Source: Candidatus Moranbacteria bacterium GW2011_GWC2_40_12
GTDB lineage: Bacteria; Patescibacteriota; Minisyncoccia; Moranbacterales; UBA11712
Length of the DNA: 64,000 bases
Reading direction: 5' to 3'
NCBI GenBank assembly: GCA_000995965.1
Contig: LBYD01000003.1
Span: forward strand, 17,713-81,712
In this document: one piece after another, positions 9,546 to 33,587 of the stretch
Numbering within the stretch: position 1 is the first letter of the stretch
Layout: every line of letters starts with the position of its first letter
Notes under the pieces: model-generated
What the model saw: only the letters and a program-made list of their open reading frames with translations
Database searches by the model: none
Told to the model about the DNA's origin: nothing
Made by a program: the position numbers and the translations under genes

Positions 9546-9613
9546 TGCGAATATACGAACGCAAGAACCTTTCCGAAATTCGTATATTCGTAAAAGATTC
9601 GTAATTCGTAAAG
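9546..9613. repeat. heptad-periodic palindromic element (ATTCGTA variant)
   Basis: gcgaatatacgaacg is the left arm. The right arm is ttcgtatattcgtaaaagattcgtaattcgtaaag. It abuts the uppS stop. Confidence 0.6.
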
Positions 9614-9614
9614 A

Positions 9615-10328
9615 TTATCCCCCAAACCGTCTCGCTCTCCTCGAATAATCCTCAATCGCCTCGTGCGCTTTTTTGTCGTCAAAATCCGGCCAAAGCACTT
9701 CCGAAAAATACAGCTGGGCGTTCCGAAGATCCCACATCATGAATCCGGCGCTAATATGCGGCTCGCCGCCGGTGCGAATCAGAAGATCCACCGGCGGAAG
9801 GTCTCGCGTCATAAGATTTTCTTTTATCATCTTTGAGGTGATACGCTTCACCTTGCCTTTGCATTTCTCGATGAGGCTGTTGGCCGCCTCGACCAATTCA
9901 TCATCGCCGGAATAAGCCAAAAGAAAATTCAAAAAAAACTTCTGGTATTTTTCGGTTCTTGTCATGCATTTTCTGATGATTTTTTTGACCGTTTCCGGAA
10001 ACTGGTCTTCCCATTTTCCGATCACATTCACCCGCACTTCATGACTGTGGATATCCTCATTGTCTATCAGTTTTAAAAAATATTTTCGATAAATATCCAG
10101 CAACGCTTTTTTTTCGCGAAGCGGCCTTTTCCGGAGATTATCGAGTGAAGATCCCCAAAAAGTGATATGTTTCACGCCCAAGTCAAGATTAGCCCGCAAC
10201 ACTTTTTCGAGGTTCTTTGCTCCCGCGTCGTGCCCTTCCCAGGGCTTGAGGCCTTTTTTCTTCGCCCATCGCCGGTTCCCGTCGGGAATAATGGCGACGT
10301 GATTGGGAATGTTTTCTAATTGAGACAT
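9615..10328 (-). CDS. uppS: undecaprenyl diphosphate synthase
   Basis: 237 aa. Carries the HVAIIPDGNRRWAKKKG motif and the conserved cis-prenyltransferase fold order. Confidence 0.95.
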   Translation of the reverse strand: MSQLENIPNHVAIIPDGNRRWAKKKGLKPWEGHDAGAKNLEKVLRANLDLGVKHITFWGSSLDNLRKRPLREKKALLDIYRKYFLKLIDNEDIHSHEVRVNVIGKWEDQFPETVKKIIRKCMTRTEKYQKFFLNFLLAYSGDDELVEAANSLIEKCKGKVKRITSKMIKENLMTRDLPPVDLLIRTGGEPHISAGFMMWDLRNAQLYFSEVLWPDFDDKKAHEAIEDYSRRARRFGG

Positions 10329-12412: not shown

Positions 12413-12432
12413 AATATTTCAAAATCCTTTGT

Positions 12433-12504
12433 AGCCTCTAGGGGAATCGAACCCCTCTTACTAGGATGAGAACCTAGCGTCCTAGCCGATAGACGAAGAG
12501 GCCA
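12433..12504 (-). tRNA. tRNA-Glu (anticodon CUC)
   Basis: Cloverleaf: acceptor GGCCUCU/AGAGGCU, D-arm GUCU..GGAC, anticodon loop UUCUCAU, T-arm AGGGGUUCGAUUCCCCU, discriminator A. No encoded CCA. Confidence 0.8.
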
Positions 12505-12655
12505 CGATAACTTATACATTACTAAAAATTTTTCAAATTGTCCATAATTTTCAAAAAAGAAAAGGGCCCGTGCTGGATGCGCCTGCGATGCAGACGCCAC
12601 GGACCCCCTCGGGTCGAATTTTGGTTTCGCAATTATTAGCTCCCTCCTTCGCCTC

Positions 12656-23104: not shown

Positions 23105-23111
23105 ACACTGG

Positions 23112-23218
23112 AGCGTAATCCCGATTGCATCGGGATAAGGCATCCCGATTTTATCGGGACATTCGTGGGTTCGTCAGGTCATTCGACCTGACGCCCGGTC
23201 GGATGACCGGGCGAATCC
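23112..23218. repeat. array of four consecutive GC-rich hairpins; contains a 14-nt copy of the tRNA-Gln variable-loop/T-arm segment
   Basis: atcccgattgcatcgggat, tcccgattttatcggga, cgtcaggtcattcgacctgacg, cccggtcggatgaccggg. The segment cattcgtgggttcg at 23166-79 is identical to tRNA-Gln positions 44-57. A related hairpin pair lies at 31925-31978. Confidence 0.5.
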
Positions 23219-23233
23219 AAAAATACAATTAAT

Positions 23234-23515: not shown

Positions 23516-23587
23516 TGGGGCGTCGCCAAGTGGTAAGGCAGGGGCCTTTGAAGCCCCCATTCGTGGGTTCGAATCCTACCGCCCCAG
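23516..23587 (+). tRNA. tRNA-Gln (anticodon UUG)
   Basis: U1-A72 first pair and G73 discriminator. D-arm UCGCCAAGUGGUAAGGCA and anticodon loop CUUUGAA. Near-identical in arm sequences to E. coli tRNA-Gln. No encoded CCA. Confidence 0.85.
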
Positions 23588-23595
23588 CTTTGCGC

Positions 23596-23657
23596 GAAAT
23601 GACTTCTGGGACAGTCCCGATGAAATCGGGATTTATCGGGGTTCGAATCCCTGTCCC
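23596..23657 (+). other. tRNA-like element with intact acceptor/T-arm and genomically encoded CCA but aberrant D/anticodon region
   Basis: Acceptor UGCGCGA/UCCCGCA with one mismatch, again U1-A72 and G73. T-arm CGGGGUUCGAAUCCCUG, then GCAGCCA. The internal region folds as the hairpin cccgatgaaatcggg instead of an anticodon arm. Confidence 0.4.
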
Positions 23658-23737
23658 GCAGCCAAATATTGACAAAAACCCTTCCATTCGCTAGGATTCT
23701 CCTAGCTTTTTATTTTATAGACAGGAGGTTTGGGAGG

Positions 23738-31868: not shown

Positions 31869-31924
31869 AAAAAGCTCACTCCAGCATACGAGTATACCGA
31901 AAGCCAATATTTTGTATCCTTAAC

Positions 31925-31978
31925 AGGAATCGCCCGGTCATCCGACCGGGCGTCCCATCGGATGACGGGACGAACCTA
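31925..31978. repeat. pair of GC-rich hairpins related to the 23112-23218 array
   Basis: cccggtcatccgaccggg is the reverse complement of the 23190 copy. tcccatcggatgacggga follows. Confidence 0.5.
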
Positions 31979-31990
31979 ATAATAAAAATT

Positions 31991-32016
31991 GCATCCTCGG
32001 CAGGATTCGAACCTGT
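31991..32016 (-). other. tRNA 3' half (T-arm + acceptor 3' strand + discriminator G), Arg-like
   Basis: ACAGGUUCGAAUCCUGCCGAGGAUG. The T-arm is identical to E. coli tRNA-Arg(CCG). It would pair with the 5' half at 32130-32172. Confidence 0.45.
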
Positions 32017-32045
32017 ATTTTAATTTCCCTGCCCGAATTTGCTTG

Positions 32046-32117
32046 TGCCCTCGATAGGAATCGAACCTATATCACGAGATCCGGAATCTCGCGTCCTATC
32101 CATTGAACGACGAGGGC
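32046..32117 (-). tRNA. tRNA-Arg (anticodon CCG)
   Basis: Cloverleaf: GCCCUCG/CGAGGGC acceptor, D-arm GUUC..GGAC, anticodon loop UUCCGGA, T-arm AUAGGUUCGAUUCCUAU, discriminator A. Confidence 0.9.
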
Positions 32118-32129
32118 AAATTCACAAGC

Positions 32130-32172
32130 AGGCTGGCGGAAACCAACGCTCTATCCAACTGAGCTACAAGGA
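32130..32172 (-). other. tRNA 5' half (acceptor 5' strand, D-arm, anticodon stem/loop with CCG), Arg-like
   Basis: GUCCUUG UA GCUCAGUUGGAUAGAGCG UUGGU UUCCG... The D-arm is identical to E. coli tRNA-Arg(CCG). The sequence diverges after the anticodon and is followed 13 nt later by the intact tRNA-Arg. Confidence 0.45.
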
Positions 32173-32249
32173 CATATCCACAGCCTGCCCCGAAGCTAAA
32201 TGTGAAGCATTTATACTTCGGGGGACGACGAGGACTCAATTAAAAAAAT

Positions 32250-32285
32250 TATTCGTATATTCGTATTTGATTCGTAATTCGTAAA
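32250..32285. repeat. tandem ATTCGTA heptads
   Basis: attcgta tattcgt atttgat tcgtaat tcgtaaa. Confidence 0.5.
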
Positions 32286-32291
32286 AATTAT

Positions 32292-33587
32292 CTATTTTTC
32301 CTTCCAGTCGCGGCTCCGCAGCTTCTTGTGATAGCTTATGGCAAAGCGATGCGCTTCATTGCGGATTCTTTCGATAAGCTTTTCATCGCCTAAGATAAAA
32401 TTGTATTTCTTCCTTATTTCCTCATTTCTCCCGAGATATGTCAAGAGGAATTTTGATTGGTATATATCCAGCTTTTTTCGGGTCTGGCCTTTGGCTACGG
32501 CAATGACCGGAAAATCATGCCCCAAATCGCCTAAAACGCTTTGCGCCATATTGAGATGCCCTTTTCCTCCATCAAGAAGAATTAGATCCGGTTTCGGCCA
32601 ATTATTCCGAAAACGCCGGACTAAAACCTCTTTCATCATACCAACGTCGTCAATTCCAAAAACGGTTTTTATCTTGAACTTTCTATATTCTTTTTTGTCC
32701 GCTTTTCCGTTTGTGAAAACAACCATCGACCCGACTGCAAAATCACCGGCAATATTAGAGATATCATAAGCTTCGATTCGGACTTTTTCCTTAAGTTTAA
32801 CTTTAGGAACATTTCCTAAAGTTAAACTTAAGGAAGTCATATCTCCGGATATAAGCGCCACATCCCGGATATGCTCCAGCGCGAAAATTCTATTGCGAGC
32901 CTCGGCCGCTTTTTCGAATTCATGATTTCTGGCACAGGCTTTCATTTGTTTTTTGAGCTCAACCAGAAGATTTTTCTTTTTCCCTCGAAGAATCATCTCG
33001 ATGCCGTGAATATTTTTGAGATAATCCGGCCGAGTTATTGCCCCCGCGTGCGGTCCCGGACACTTCCCTATTTGGAAATCAAGGCAGCCTTTTTCGGTTT
33101 GCTGCTTCAACGAGTGAAACGGAAAAATTCGACGGATGAGTTTCAGGGCGATATTCATTTGATGTTTTGAAAGATACGGCCCGTATATTTTTTTCGCCGG
33201 CACTTTCCCGAGCTCTGTTTTCCAAAGAATAATAATTCTCGGGAATTTTTCTTTCGTCACAACAAAATAGCCGAAACTCTTGTCGTCTTTGGACATCACG
33301 TTATATTTCGGCTGGTGTTTTTTGATGAGATTGGACTCCAAAATCAAGGCTTCGAGCACGGAGTCGGTAACGCGCACTTTGATATCAGAAACTTGTGAAA
33401 TCATCGGCTCAATATTCGGCCGGTCAAGATGCGCGTTTTTGAGAAAATAACTCCCTACTCGATCCTTGAGACTCGTCGCTTTCCCAATATAAAGAATCTT
33501 CCCTTGCTTATCACAAAATTCATAAACGCCGGGGGATTTGGGGAGAGATTTAAACTTATTGTATTTTCTTGACATTATTGCAATCAT
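32292..33587 (-). CDS. uvrC: excinuclease ABC subunit C, short form (GIY-YIG + UVR + RNase H-like; no C-terminal HhH pair)
   Basis: N-terminal PGVYEFCDKQGKILYIGKATSLKDRVGSYF, UVR-domain FEKAAEARNRIFALE, then ...NEAHRFAISYHKK. 431 aa. Confidence 0.8.
   Translation of the reverse strand: MIAIMSRKYNKFKSLPKSPGVYEFCDKQGKILYIGKATSLKDRVGSYFLKNAHLDRPNIEPMISQVSDIKVRVTDSVLEALILESNLIKKHQPKYNVMSKDDKSFGYFVVTKEKFPRIIILWKTELGKVPAKKIYGPYLSKHQMNIALKLIRRIFPFHSLKQQTEKGCLDFQIGKCPGPHAGAITRPDYLKNIHGIEMILRGKKKNLLVELKKQMKACARNHEFEKAAEARNRIFALEHIRDVALISGDMTSLSLTLGNVPKVKLKEKVRIEAYDISNIAGDFAVGSMVVFTNGKADKKEYRKFKIKTVFGIDDVGMMKEVLVRRFRNNWPKPDLILLDGGKGHLNMAQSVLGDLGHDFPVIAVAKGQTRKKLDIYQSKFLLTYLGRNEEIRKKYNFILGDEKLIERIRNEAHRFAISYHKKLRSRDWKEK

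What the first reader, a model, noticed from the sequence alone, without database searches (positions are those of the whole stretch)
31985..32235. tRNA-Arg(CCG) gene nested between the 5' and 3' halves of a second Arg-like tRNA
On the minus strand, from the 5' end, there is first a 13-nt tRNA 5'-end fragment (GUCCUCGUCGU) and a long hairpin. Next comes a tRNA 5' half, GUCCUUG-UA-GCUCAGUUGGAUAGAGCG-UUGGU-UUCCG, whose D-arm is identical to E. coli tRNA-Arg(CCG) and which breaks right after the anticodon. About 13 nt later sits a complete, canonical tRNA-Arg(CCG) at 32046-32117. About 30 nt after that is a tRNA 3' half, ACAGGUUCGAAUCCUG-CCGAGGAU-G. Its acceptor strand pairs with the 5' half's GUCCUUG. 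The arrangement is either a tRNA gene disrupted by an insertion that carries its own replacement tRNA (an integrative-element scar), a tandem duplication in decay, or an unusually large intron at the canonical 37/38 position.
Basis: seen in the sequence. Interest (0 to 1): 0.65.

Follow-up and report, generated by a model that had tools for sequence, protein, structure and literature searches.

The report
Nested tRNA-Arg gene remnants, Russian-doll style
One working arginine tRNA gene sits exactly inside the anticodon loop of a second, broken arginine tRNA gene, which sits between the ends of a third; these are most likely leftovers of repeated gene replacement at one spot in a tiny-genome (CPR) bacterium, not a spliced intron.

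Summary
On the minus strand, a canonical tRNA-Arg(CCG) ("C", 32046-32117) lies between a 5' half ("B5'", 32137-32173, tRNA positions 1-36) and a 3' half ("B3'", 31992-32026, positions 37-73) of a different tRNA-Arg(CCG). Joined in silico, the halves are called tRNA-Arg(CCG). A clade profile maps them to abutting positions 1-36 and 37-69. A third, older layer ("A") surrounds both, and GC-rich palindromic mini-elements sit in its D-loop and T-loop.

The window is a CPR bacterium, Candidatus Moranbacteria RIFOXYB1_FULL_44_23. A syntenic relative (L007) has the same three layers. Six others carry other combinations at the same uvrC-downstream site: an intact A, 5' or 3' fragments, or the same left junction inside an A-type gene.

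There is no group I intron signal, no bulge-helix-bulge motif and no integrase nearby. Each lineage's outer gene has its own lesions.

Best reading: C plus 19-nt inverted-repeat flanks (110 bp) inserted precisely into B's anticodon loop. B and A are dead shells at a tRNA-gene turnover hotspot.

Unresolved: the shells are about 81% identical between genomes, against 47% at uvrC fourfold sites. That implies recent module exchange or an unknown function.

The parts
32223..32235 (-). A5': the first 13 nt (acceptor 5' strand, positions 8-9, D-stem 5' strand) of an older 'A-type' tRNA-Arg(CCG): GTCCTCGTCGTCC
   Evidence: Identical to the 5' end of the intact A-type genes in L004 and L094. Coordinates checked.
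32183..32222 (-). E1: a 40-nt palindromic mini-element inserted in the D-loop of A (CCCGAAGTATAAATGCTTCACATTTAGCTTCGGGGCAGGC)
   Evidence: Folds at -19.1 kcal/mol. Near-identical copies lie in D-loops of 5' tRNA fragments upstream of tRNA-Thr and tRNA-Arg(TCG) genes, and in an rpmE 5' UTR, on other Moranbacteria contigs.
32174..32182 (-). Remainder of A's D-loop (TGTGGATAT; AATGGATAT in L007). A is truncated here.
   Evidence: Alignment with L007, L002 and L085, where the D-loop continues after the element.
32137..32173 (-). B5': 5' half (positions 1-36, ending at anticodon base G36) of a 'B-type' tRNA-Arg(CCG)
   Evidence: nhmmer model positions 1-36, E 9.5e-4. ARAGORN calls the spliced construct a tRNA. 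92% identical to the L007 orthologue.
32118..32136 (-). Left flank of the inserted cassette (CCAGCCTGCTTGTGAATTT). It pairs with the right flank.
   Evidence: RNAfold pairs GCCUG/CGGGC and UUGU/GCAA. The same flank follows the anticodon of a B-type half in L007 and of an A-type half in L094.
32046..32117 (-). C: the complete, canonical tRNA-Arg(CCG), presumed to be the only functional gene of the locus
   Evidence: ARAGORN. Rfam RF00005, 62.9 bits. By direct comparison of the sequences, several of its differences from the L007 and L094 copies fall as matched pairs on both strands of stems and keep the pairs; pair-by-pair counts were not computed with a tool.
32027..32045 (-). Right flank of the cassette (CAAGCAAATTCGGGCAGGG). 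It ends in the CGGGCAGG motif shared with E1 and E2 termini.
   Evidence: Conserved in L007 as CAAAAAAAAACGGGCAGGG.
31992..32026 (-). B3': 3' half (position 37/38 to discriminator G73) of the B-type tRNA-Arg(CCG), degenerate in this genome
   Evidence: nhmmer model positions 37-69, E 5.7e-6. ARAGORN cloverleaf of the spliced construct has four G.U pairs, a 4-bp T stem and a 3-nt variable loop.
31915..31977 (-). A3': T arm and acceptor 3' strand of the A-type gene (AGGTTCG ... ATTCCTGTTAAGGATA), split by E5, a 40-nt double-hairpin element at 31931-31970
   Evidence: Aligns with the A 3' ends in L007, L001, L002 and L094, which carry a different hairpin (E4) in the T-loop. The 25-nt hairpin of E5 recurs exactly at 23190-23214. 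E5 copies show compensatory stem changes.

Best explanation
The locus just downstream of uvrC is a turnover hotspot for the tRNA-Arg(CCG) gene in this Moranbacteria clade. The window preserves three concentric generations of that gene.

The innermost gene C (32046-32117) is the functional tRNA. It arrived as a 110-bp unit: the tRNA plus 19-nt flanks that are partial inverted repeats (CCTGC...GCAGG). This unit inserted precisely into the anticodon loop of the resident B-type gene, after G36 or position 37. The insertion splits B into two exactly complementary halves and supplies the replacement, so it is selectively tolerable.

B itself lies between the stubs of a still older A-type gene: positions 1-21 on the left, and the T arm plus acceptor strand on the right. 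Small GC-rich palindromic elements have settled in the loops of the dead pieces. E1 is in A's D-loop and E5 is in A's T-loop. In relatives, E2 and E4 are seen.

The outer halves are not spliced back together.

Shown: the anatomy, the orthology, the abutting breakpoints, the lineage-specific lesions, the repeated nature of the palindromes, and the shuffling of modules between genomes.

Inferred: the direction of events (insertion rather than deletion), the non-function of B and A, and the way the cassette moved. It may be a mobile mini-cassette related to the palindromic elements, or it may have spread by recombination with incoming DNA.
For: 1. Only C passes the tRNA models. ARAGORN in intron mode does not rescue B from the genomic sequence.
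2. The halves are tRNA-derived and abut at 36/37.
3. The host is a bacterium, Cand. Moranbacteria. Synteny with L007 holds across uvrA, uvrC, the tRNA locus, pgeF, yrdC and IMPDH.
4. L007 has the same A5'-E1-B5'-flank-C-flank-B3'-A3' order.
5. Each lineage has independent lesions in B.
   - The window has C37. Its anticodon stem has either two mismatches in register or an 8-nt loop and 3-nt variable region out of register. It also has A49.C65, G1.U72 and U6.G67.
   - L007's B has perfect stems but a 36-nt palindrome (E2) in the D-loop, and ARAGORN then fails to call it.
6. The same site takes other states in relatives.
   - Intact A plus 3' fragments: L004, L092, L093.
   - D-type gene between A stubs: L002.
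   - D-type gene plus A3': L001.
   - Two nested layers around D: L082.
   - An A-type 5' half (model 1-36, E 3e-8) followed by the same left flank and C: L094.

7. Modules are shuffled. L094 pairs a window-like flank with an L007-like C.
8. The palindromes behave like repeated elements.
   - E1 occurs at several unrelated loci.
   - E5's hairpin occurs twice in the window.
   - E2 lies at the same D-loop site in opposite orientations in L007 and L082.
9. No group I intron, integrase, phage or plasmid signal was found.
Against: 1. The supposedly dead pieces are too well conserved. B halves plus flanks are about 81% identical between the window and L007 (read from the alignment; B5' is 92%). 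Fourfold-degenerate sites of the adjacent uvrC are 47% identical. The spacers just outside A5' and A3' do not align.
2. Most changes in the window's B3' convert Watson-Crick pairs to G.U rather than to mismatches.
3. No transposase, target-site duplication or second genomic copy of the tRNA cassette was found, so mobility of the cassette is not demonstrated.
4. The shared left junction in A-type (L094) and B-type hosts could come from a microhomology deletion between two anticodon loops (shared GTTTCCG) rather than from two insertions.
5. Only two independent B(C) orthologues are available.
Confidence: 0.6

Rival explanations
1. Functional composite precursor. The whole block from A5' to A3' is transcribed. 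The outer half-tRNAs are kept by selection, for example as a tRNA-like scaffold that positions RNase P and 3' processing enzymes on C. Alternatively, once C is excised, B5' and B3' may stay base-paired as a two-piece tRNA-like RNA or yield tRNA-half-like small RNAs.
For: - B halves and flanks are about 81% identical between the window and L007, against 47% at uvrC fourfold sites. The conserved block ends exactly at A5' and A3'.
- RNAfold stacks a 9-bp extension of B's anticodon stem onto the flank helix and C. MFE is -62.8 kcal/mol with z = -2.1. For the 321-nt block, z = -5.8.
- One flank pair covaries: U:A73 in the window becomes C:G73 in L007.
- Dead arms are replaced by tight hairpins with compensatory changes, rather than simply eroding.
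Against: - C works in L094 without B3' or the right flank. A-type and D-type genes work without any 5' shell in L001, L004, L092 and L093.
- B carries different damaging changes in each lineage.
- Module shuffling and a 99%-identical upstream spacer in L002 and L092, whose uvrC is 80% identical, show that recent exchange can mimic constraint.
- No promoter-like site was found in the shell.
Confidence: 0.15
2. Classical integration scars. Integrative elements (phage, plasmid or island) with tyrosine integrases repeatedly integrated into the tRNA-Arg(CCG) gene. Later deletions removed the elements and left only att-type tRNA fragments.
For: - tRNA gene fragments next to tRNA genes are the known signature of integration (PMC9897764, PMC3293823).
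- Breakpoints fall in the D-loop, anticodon loop and T-loop.
- L004, L092 and L093 show a full gene followed by a series of 3' fragments, as expected from tandem accretion.
Against: - Integration by an element that carries a 3' tRNA copy never leaves a free 5' half ending at the anticodon and followed by non-tRNA sequence.
- There is no duplicated crossover segment between B5' and B3'.
- There is no integrase or cargo in the window's neighbourhood or in any of the eight relatives.
- Every element would have had to be deleted down to 10-20 nt in every genome.
- The junction patterns and E1 have no match in viral contigs. Only generic tRNA matches were found in phage and plasmid records.
Confidence: 0.12
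3. True intron. B is a functional tRNA-Arg(CCG) whose 110-nt intervening sequence at 36/37-38 is removed at the RNA level, with C released as a by-product.
For: - The insert lies at or next to the canonical 37/38 position.
- L007's B, with both insertions removed, is a perfect cloverleaf with loop UUCCGGA.
- The flanks form a helix that brings the exon ends together.
- Patescibacteria are unusually rich in tRNA introns (PMC13011429).
Against: - Known Patescibacteria tRNA introns are group I, average 257 bp, and were found at every anticodon-loop position except 37/38 (PMC13011429). No group I model matches here, even at E up to 10.
- No bulge-helix-bulge motif can be drawn. The 3' strand is continuous, and the 5' strand has a 4-nt internal-loop side or a 7-nt bulge (reading of the sequence).
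- The window's B would have a pyrimidine at position 37 or an abnormal loop.
- L007's B would also need a D-loop splice.
- C already supplies the same anticodon.
Confidence: 0.05
4. Tandem duplicates in decay. Three tandem tRNA-Arg genes existed. The left one lost its 3' half and the right one lost its 5' half.
For: Tandem isoacceptor genes are common in bacteria. Relatives show full genes followed by partial copies.
Against: - The two halves abut at model positions 36/37 with no overlap or gap. They belong to the same B sequence type, which is only about 65% like C (24 of 37 positions in the 5' half, read from the sequences).
- Two independent deletions would need to end at complementary positions by chance.
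- The 19-nt flanks pair with each other.
Confidence: 0.05

Closest known systems
tRNA gene fragments left by integrating mobile elements (for example Thermococcaceae, PMC9897764; the Caldiarchaeum tRNA-Thr disruption model, PMC3293823)
   Same: Partial, non-functional tRNA pieces lie beside a complete isoacceptor gene. Breakpoints fall in tRNA loops. The locus differs between close relatives.
   Different: There is no recombinase or element cargo. The fragments are concentric (5' piece, full gene, 3' piece) and only 10-20 nt apart. The halves abut exactly instead of sharing a duplicated att core. The inserted unit is just a tRNA with 19-nt flanks.
Group I introns in Patescibacteria tRNA genes (PMC13011429)
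   Same: Same phylum. An interruption of the anticodon loop hides the outer gene from standard tRNA finders.
   Different: The insert is 110 nt and consists mostly of a tRNA. There is no group I core. Its position is 36/37-38, and the paper found no group I intron at 37/38.
Archaeal disrupted tRNA genes: BHB introns at canonical and non-canonical sites, multi-intron and split tRNAs (PMC4033280, PMC4090602)
   Same: Interruptions occur in the D-loop, at 37/38 and in the T-loop. A helix formed by the insert ends lies next to the anticodon stem. This is the closest look-alike in overall appearance.
   Different: The host is bacterial. The bulge-helix-bulge geometry is absent. No splicing endonuclease is known in this group (not tested genome-wide). 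The outer genes carry lesions.
REP/REPIN and MITE-type palindromic repeats (PMC3733652, PMC3184786)
   Same: E1, E2, E4 and E5 are 28-41-nt GC-rich palindromes. They are repeated within and between genomes, occur in either orientation, and have compensatory stem changes. E5 is a doublet of inverted hairpins.
   Different: In the 64-kb window they are seen only inside tRNA-derived pieces, at canonical loop positions. Copy number is low. No RAYT or TnpA gene was identified. No conserved GTAG or CGTC end tag was established.

Membership tests
Canonical bacterial tRNA (inner gene C) | Cloverleaf scoring above the Rfam RF00005 gathering threshold, with a 7-nt anticodon loop | tested here: met
   62.9 bits against a threshold of 29. 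ARAGORN calls tRNA-Arg(CCG).
Intron-containing tRNA (outer gene B) | Removing the insert restores a canonical tRNA: purine at 37, 7-nt loop, intact stems | tested here: inconclusive
   ARAGORN accepts the spliced constructs. The window copy has C at the position aligned with G37 of L007. It also has either two anticodon-stem mismatches or abnormal loop and variable-region lengths, plus A49.C65. The L007 copy is canonical only if a second, D-loop insert is also removed.
Group I intron | Conserved catalytic core detectable by the Rfam Intron_gpI covariance model; typical length above 200 nt | tested here: not met
   No hit at gathering score or at E up to 10 in the window region, and none at gathering score in six related loci. 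The insert is 110 nt, of which 72 nt are a tRNA.
Archaeal/eukaryal protein-spliced tRNA intron | Bulge-helix-bulge motif: two 3-nt bulges on opposite strands, separated by 4 bp, at the splice sites | tested here: not met
   The predicted structure has a continuous 9-bp helix and then a 4-nt by 2-nt internal loop. An alternative drawing gives a 7-nt bulge on one strand only. The same holds for L007, by reading.
Archaeal/eukaryal protein-spliced tRNA intron | Host encodes a tRNA splicing endonuclease and ligase | not testable with these tools
   Only 64 kb of the genome is held. The host is a bacterium of the Patescibacteria.
Integrase-generated att scar | A direct repeat of the tRNA 3' (or 5') segment that includes the crossover core, bounding an element | tested here: not met
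   B5' covers model positions 1-36 and B3' covers 37-69, with no shared segment. Only 110 bp lie between them.
Integrase-generated att scar | An adjacent integrase or recombinase gene, or recognisable element cargo | tested here: not met
   Neighbouring ORFs are uvrC, uvrA, pgeF-like, NUDIX, DUF378, yrdC and IMPDH, named by reading the translations in the window. Precomputed Pfam labels of neighbours in relatives show the same kinds of genes. I ran no Pfam search of my own on the window ORFs.
MITE / non-autonomous transposon (the 110-bp tRNA cassette) | Terminal inverted repeats | tested here: inconclusive
   The flanks pair over GCCUG/CGGGC and UUGU/GCAA with interruptions. The right end, CGGGCAGG, matches the termini of E1 and E2.
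MITE / non-autonomous transposon (the 110-bp tRNA cassette) | Target-site duplication and multiple dispersed copies | tested here: not met
   There is no duplication at the junctions. The cassette was found only at this locus: in the window, in L007 with its duplicates L090 and L091, and in part in L094. There were no viral hits.
REP/MITE-like palindromic repeats (E1, E2, E5) | Short palindromes repeated at unrelated sites, in either orientation, with the stem maintained | tested here: met
   E1 occurs at six or more distinct loci. E5's hairpin occurs twice in the window. E2 is reverse-complemented between L007 and L082. E5 copies show compensatory changes.

The most novel reading that the evidence does not exclude
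A minimal 'self-replacing' tRNA cassette. It would be a mobile unit of about 110 bp, consisting only of a tRNA gene bounded by short inverted repeats related to the clade's palindromic mini-elements. It would insert site-specifically into the anticodon loop of its own isoacceptor gene, killing the resident gene while supplying the substitute. That would make it a selfish element whose only cargo is the function it destroys. A less likely variant is that the nested transcript is processed into a working two-piece or spliced tRNA by an undescribed bacterial pathway. The identical left junction after G36 in two different host gene types (B in the window and L007, A in L094) is the main hint, together with a similar junction at a tRNA-Thr(CGT) locus (L086).
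Probability: 0.15. Interest if true: 0.8.

Novelty: new variant of a known kind. Interest (0 to 1): 0.5.

Why it matters
Disrupted and fragmentary tRNA genes are well known in archaea and at bacterial integration sites. A complete tRNA gene sitting exactly in the anticodon loop of a second isoacceptor gene, inside the stubs of a third and with no recombinase in sight, appeared in none of the literature searches I ran.

It matters in four ways.
- It shows how a single-copy, essential tRNA gene can be overwritten repeatedly in a streamlined CPR genome without loss of function.
- It exposes a set of small palindromic elements that sit specifically in the D-, anticodon- and T-loops of tRNA-derived DNA.
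- It is a practical warning for annotation. Intron-aware or 'split tRNA' searches would over-call such shells, and the shells could be mistaken for archaeal-type introns.
- If the shells prove to be maintained by selection, or the cassette proves to be mobile, it would be a new kind of tRNA-gene parasite or a new processing architecture in bacteria.

Tried and rejected
- ARAGORN with intron options on the genomic sequence finds only the inner gene.
- Rfam at permissive E-values gave only chance-level hits (L10 leader, Pedo-repair, CRISPR-DR9, all far below threshold) and no intron family.
- Bulge-helix-bulge motif: drawn by hand for the window and L007, and rejected.
- Promoter scan: no sigma-70-like site on the tRNA strand within the shell. 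The 'terminator-like' hits are the palindromes themselves. The idea that E1's TATAAAT is a -10 box was dropped, because no conserved -35 is present across copies.
- Viral contigs: the two junction patterns and E1 gave 0 hits. The 16-mer of E5 gave 29 hits, about what I estimate for chance. The one contig with two hits is an unrelated GC-rich phage repeat.
- Phage and plasmid BLAST gave only generic tRNA-Arg matches to C.
- E. coli comparison of the 5' half was not informative. The best matches are tRNA-Ile genes.
- CGGGCAGG elsewhere in the window: four other sites, none of them part of a palindromic element.
- Systematic 'excise the tRNA and rescan' test on 49 tRNAs. The only other positive, L060, was a false alarm caused by an intact neighbouring tRNA-Pro.
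- Six of the 12 contig look-ups returned no DNA. As a result, only two independent B(C) orthologues could be compared and no formal covariation test was possible.
Full report
**1. What is in the sequence**

All features below are on the minus strand (coordinates re-extracted). In order:
- uvrC stop codon (32292), then an AT-rich 'tacgaat' repeat.
- A5', GTCCTCGTCGTCC (32235-32223).
- E1, a 40-nt palindrome (32222-32183).
- TGTGGATAT (32182-32174).
- B5', GTCCTTGTAGCTCAGTTGGATAGAGCGTTGGTTTCCG (32173-32137).
- Left flank, CCAGCCTGCTTGTGAATTT (32136-32118).
- C, a complete tRNA-Arg(CCG) (32117-32046).
- Right flank, CAAGCAAATTCGGGCAGGG (32045-32027).
- B3', AAATTAAAATACAGGTTCGAATCCTGCCGAGGATG (32026-31992).
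- A 14-nt spacer.
- A3', AGGTTCG[40-nt double hairpin E5]ATTCCTGTTAAGGATA (31977-31915).
- The 3' end of a convergent pgeF-like gene.

ARAGORN and Rfam see only C. ARAGORN's intron mode does not change that.

**2. Is the nested arrangement more than chance?**

Yes.
- Joining B5' to B3' gives a sequence that ARAGORN calls tRNA-Arg(CCG).
- Shuffling the 5' half leaves 4 of 3000 detections. Shuffling the 3' half leaves 0 of 3000.
- I built a profile HMM from six tRNA-Arg(CCG) genes of related genomes, excluding this locus. It hits B5' as model positions 1-36 (E 9.5e-4 in 64 kb) and B3' as positions 37-69 (E 5.7e-6). The two pieces are therefore tRNA-derived and abut exactly.
Only this gene and its L007 orthologue gave a true spanning tRNA. 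One other positive was an artefact of a neighbouring intact tRNA-Pro.

**3. Whose genome is it?**

The UvrC protein is 100% identical to a protein of Candidatus Moranbacteria bacterium RIFOXYB1_FULL_44_23. All close relatives are Moranbacteria or Parcubacteria, in the Patescibacteria (CPR). The host is therefore a bacterium. This matters for the intron hypotheses.

**4. The same site in relatives**

All eight genomes compared are about equally distant. uvrC DNA identity is 67-80% across all pairs, and 72-80% once the outlier L004 is left out.

| Locus | State just downstream of uvrC |
|---|---|
| L007 (RIFOXYB1_FULL_43_19; syntenic over 6.5 kb) | Same three layers as the window. Its B has perfect Watson-Crick stems and loop UUCCGGA once the inserts are removed, but it carries an extra 36-nt palindrome (E2) in the D-loop |
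| L094 | An A-type 5' half (model 1-36, E 3e-8), then the same left flank (CCCGCCTGCTTGTGAATTT), then C. The right flank and the matching 3' anticodon strand are absent. An A3' stub follows |
| L004, L092, L093 | An intact A-type gene directly after uvrC, followed by one or two 3' fragments |
| L001 | An intact D-type gene plus the A3' stub |
| L002 | A5' and a hairpin, then a D-type gene, then A3' |
| L082 | Two nested layers around a D-type gene. The acceptor strands of each layer are complementary |
| L081, L095 | No tRNA at this site |

The window is therefore one snapshot of a highly variable locus. At least four sequence types of the same isoacceptor have replaced one another there.

**5. 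The palindromic elements**

- **E1.** It is nearly identical in the window, L007 and L082. A metagenome scan found it in the D-loops of 5' tRNA fragments upstream of tRNA-Thr(GGT), tRNA-Thr(CGT) and tRNA-Arg(TCG) genes, and also in an rpmE leader.
- **E2.** It lies after GGATA in the D-loop of a B-type fragment in L007 and of a D-type fragment in L082, in opposite orientations.
- **E5.** This double hairpin sits after GGTTCG in the T-loop of the Arg A3' stub. It also sits in a Gln-derived mosaic at 23109-23219 in this window, and in a fragment in L086. Hairpin 2 is identical over 25 nt between the two window copies. Both hairpins show compensatory changes among copies.
- **Shared terminus.** E1, E2 and the cassette's right flank all end in a (C)GGGCAGG-like motif.
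- **Distribution.** In the 64-kb window, the E-type elements are found only inside tRNA-derived pieces. A simple census lists eight other GC-rich inverted repeats, which I did not examine.

**6. What it is not**

- **Not a group I intron.** Nothing is found at gathering score, or at E up to 10 in the window region. The insert is 110 nt, against an average of 257 bp. The recent survey of Patescibacteria tRNA introns found none at 37/38 (PMC13011429).
- **Not an archaeal-type intron.** The predicted pairing is a continuous 9-bp helix, followed by an asymmetric internal loop. An alternative drawing has a 7-nt bulge on one strand only. No two 3-nt bulges separated by 4 bp can be drawn in either genome.
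- **Not a classical att scar.** There is no shared crossover segment. No integrase or cargo is seen in the window or in any relative. No viral, phage or plasmid relatives were found.
- **Not simple tandem decay.** The breakpoints are exactly complementary, and the flanks pair with each other.

**7. Is the outer gene alive?**

Probably not.

C supplies the same anticodon. By my reading of the sequences, several of its differences between genomes fall as matched changes on both strands of stems, as expected for a working tRNA. I did not count these with a tool.

B carries different damage in each lineage.
- In the window, position 37 is C. Every full-length tRNA-Arg(CCG) gene seen in this clade has a purine there, and this is the general rule for tRNAs (my own knowledge).
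- In the window, the anticodon stem has two mismatches in register. Out of register it needs an 8-nt loop and a 3-nt variable region.
- The window also has A49.C65, G1.U72 and U6.G67.
- L007 has the E2 insert in the D-loop.

C also functions in L094 without B3'.

**8. What does not fit**

By reading the alignment, B halves plus flanks are about 81% identical between the window and L007 (B5' is 92%). The immediately following CAATTTTTA is identical. Fourfold-degenerate sites of uvrC are only 47% identical (118 sites). The spacers just outside A5' and A3' cannot be aligned.

Two explanations are possible.
- The block was exchanged between co-occurring populations more recently than the genomes diverged.
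  - Both genomes come from the same RIFOXYB1 sample series.
  - Modules are demonstrably shuffled: L094 has a window-like flank with an L007-like C.
  - The spacer upstream of the tRNA in L002 and L092 is 99% identical over 84 nt (from the sequences), while their uvrC is 80% identical.
- The shell has a function.

I cannot separate these with two orthologues. I therefore keep a functional-scaffold rival at 0.15.

A second oddity is that dead arms are often replaced by neat hairpins at canonical loop positions, rather than eroding. The anticodon arm becomes CCCCGCC-GTG-GCGGGG in L093 and L004. At the window's Gln locus, TCCCGAT..ATCGGGA hairpins replace the D and anticodon arms.

**9. Mechanism I commit to (confidence 0.6)**

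A 110-bp unit, consisting of C and its inverted-repeat flanks, inserted precisely into the anticodon loop of a resident B-type gene. That B gene had itself earlier displaced an A-type gene. The shells are non-functional, and palindromic elements colonise them.

How the unit moved is inferred, not shown. It may be a mini-cassette mobilised in trans and related to E2. The alternative is homology-assisted replacement from incoming DNA.

The repeated left junction in A-type and B-type hosts is suggestive of site specificity. It could also arise from a deletion between two anticodon loops that share GTTTCCG.

**10. Verdict**

The intron reading is unlikely.

[quoted passage not shown] A minority chance remains of something truly new, such as a self-replacing tRNA cassette or a maintained tRNA-like shell.

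Noticed in passing
window 23109-23219 (+), about 300 nt upstream of tRNA-Gln(TTG) at 23516-23588: A tRNA-Gln-derived mosaic. It has the acceptor 5' strand, then a TCCCGATTGCATCGGGA hairpin in place of the D-arm, TAAGGCA, a second TCCCGATTTTATCGGGA hairpin in place of the anticodon arm, then CATTCGTGGGTTCG, the same E5 double hairpin as at the Arg locus, and AATCCA. No 3' acceptor strand is present.
   Followed up: partly
window 23606-23664 (+), just after tRNA-Gln: A mini tRNA-like piece. It has a 7-bp stem GGGACAG/CTGTCCC enclosing a third TCCCGAT..ATCGGGA hairpin and a T-arm-like GGGGTTCGAATCCC, followed by GCAGCCA. In all, two of the three tRNA genes in the window are accompanied by tRNA-derived mosaics.
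   Followed up: no
window 32250-32292 (-) and 9578-9619 (+): A 42-nt AT-rich 'TACGAAT' repeat lies directly after the uvrC stop codon. It recurs at 90% identity, in inverted orientation, about 22.7 kb away. Its function is unknown.
   Followed up: no
L088 and L089 (metagenome contigs Ga0100389_1033708 and Ga0100397_1083152), about 20 nt upstream of an rpmE-like ORF: The E1 palindrome (CCCCGAAGTATAAATGCTTCGCATTTAACTACGGGGCAGGC) also occurs outside any tRNA context, in the leader of a ribosomal protein L31 gene. Its sequence is almost invariant across genomes. That suggests either very recent spread or a sequence-specific role.
   Followed up: partly
L086 4929-5260 (-): A tRNA-Thr(CGT) gene is preceded by a Thr-type 5' fragment. 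The fragment carries E1 in its D-loop and ends at the anticodon, followed by CTCGCCTGCTATCGTCATTT. This junction resembles the one at the Arg locus. Upstream lies a T-loop stub carrying an E5-type double hairpin. The fragment-plus-palindrome pattern is therefore not specific to tRNA-Arg.
   Followed up: partly
L002 2205-2288 versus L092 2465-2545: The 84-nt spacer between uvrC and the tRNA locus is 99% identical between two genomes whose uvrC genes are only 80% identical. This points to recent exchange, or to strong constraint on an unrecognised non-coding element.
   Followed up: no
window 12504-12640, upstream (minus strand) of tRNA-Glu(CTC) at 12431-12503: A GC-rich palindromic stretch (GCGCCTGCGATGCAGACGC within CCGTGCTGGATGCGCCTGCGATGCAGACGCCACGG) lies about 90 nt upstream of the tRNA-Glu gene. 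It contains the CCTGC/GCAG motif seen in the other elements.
   Followed up: no
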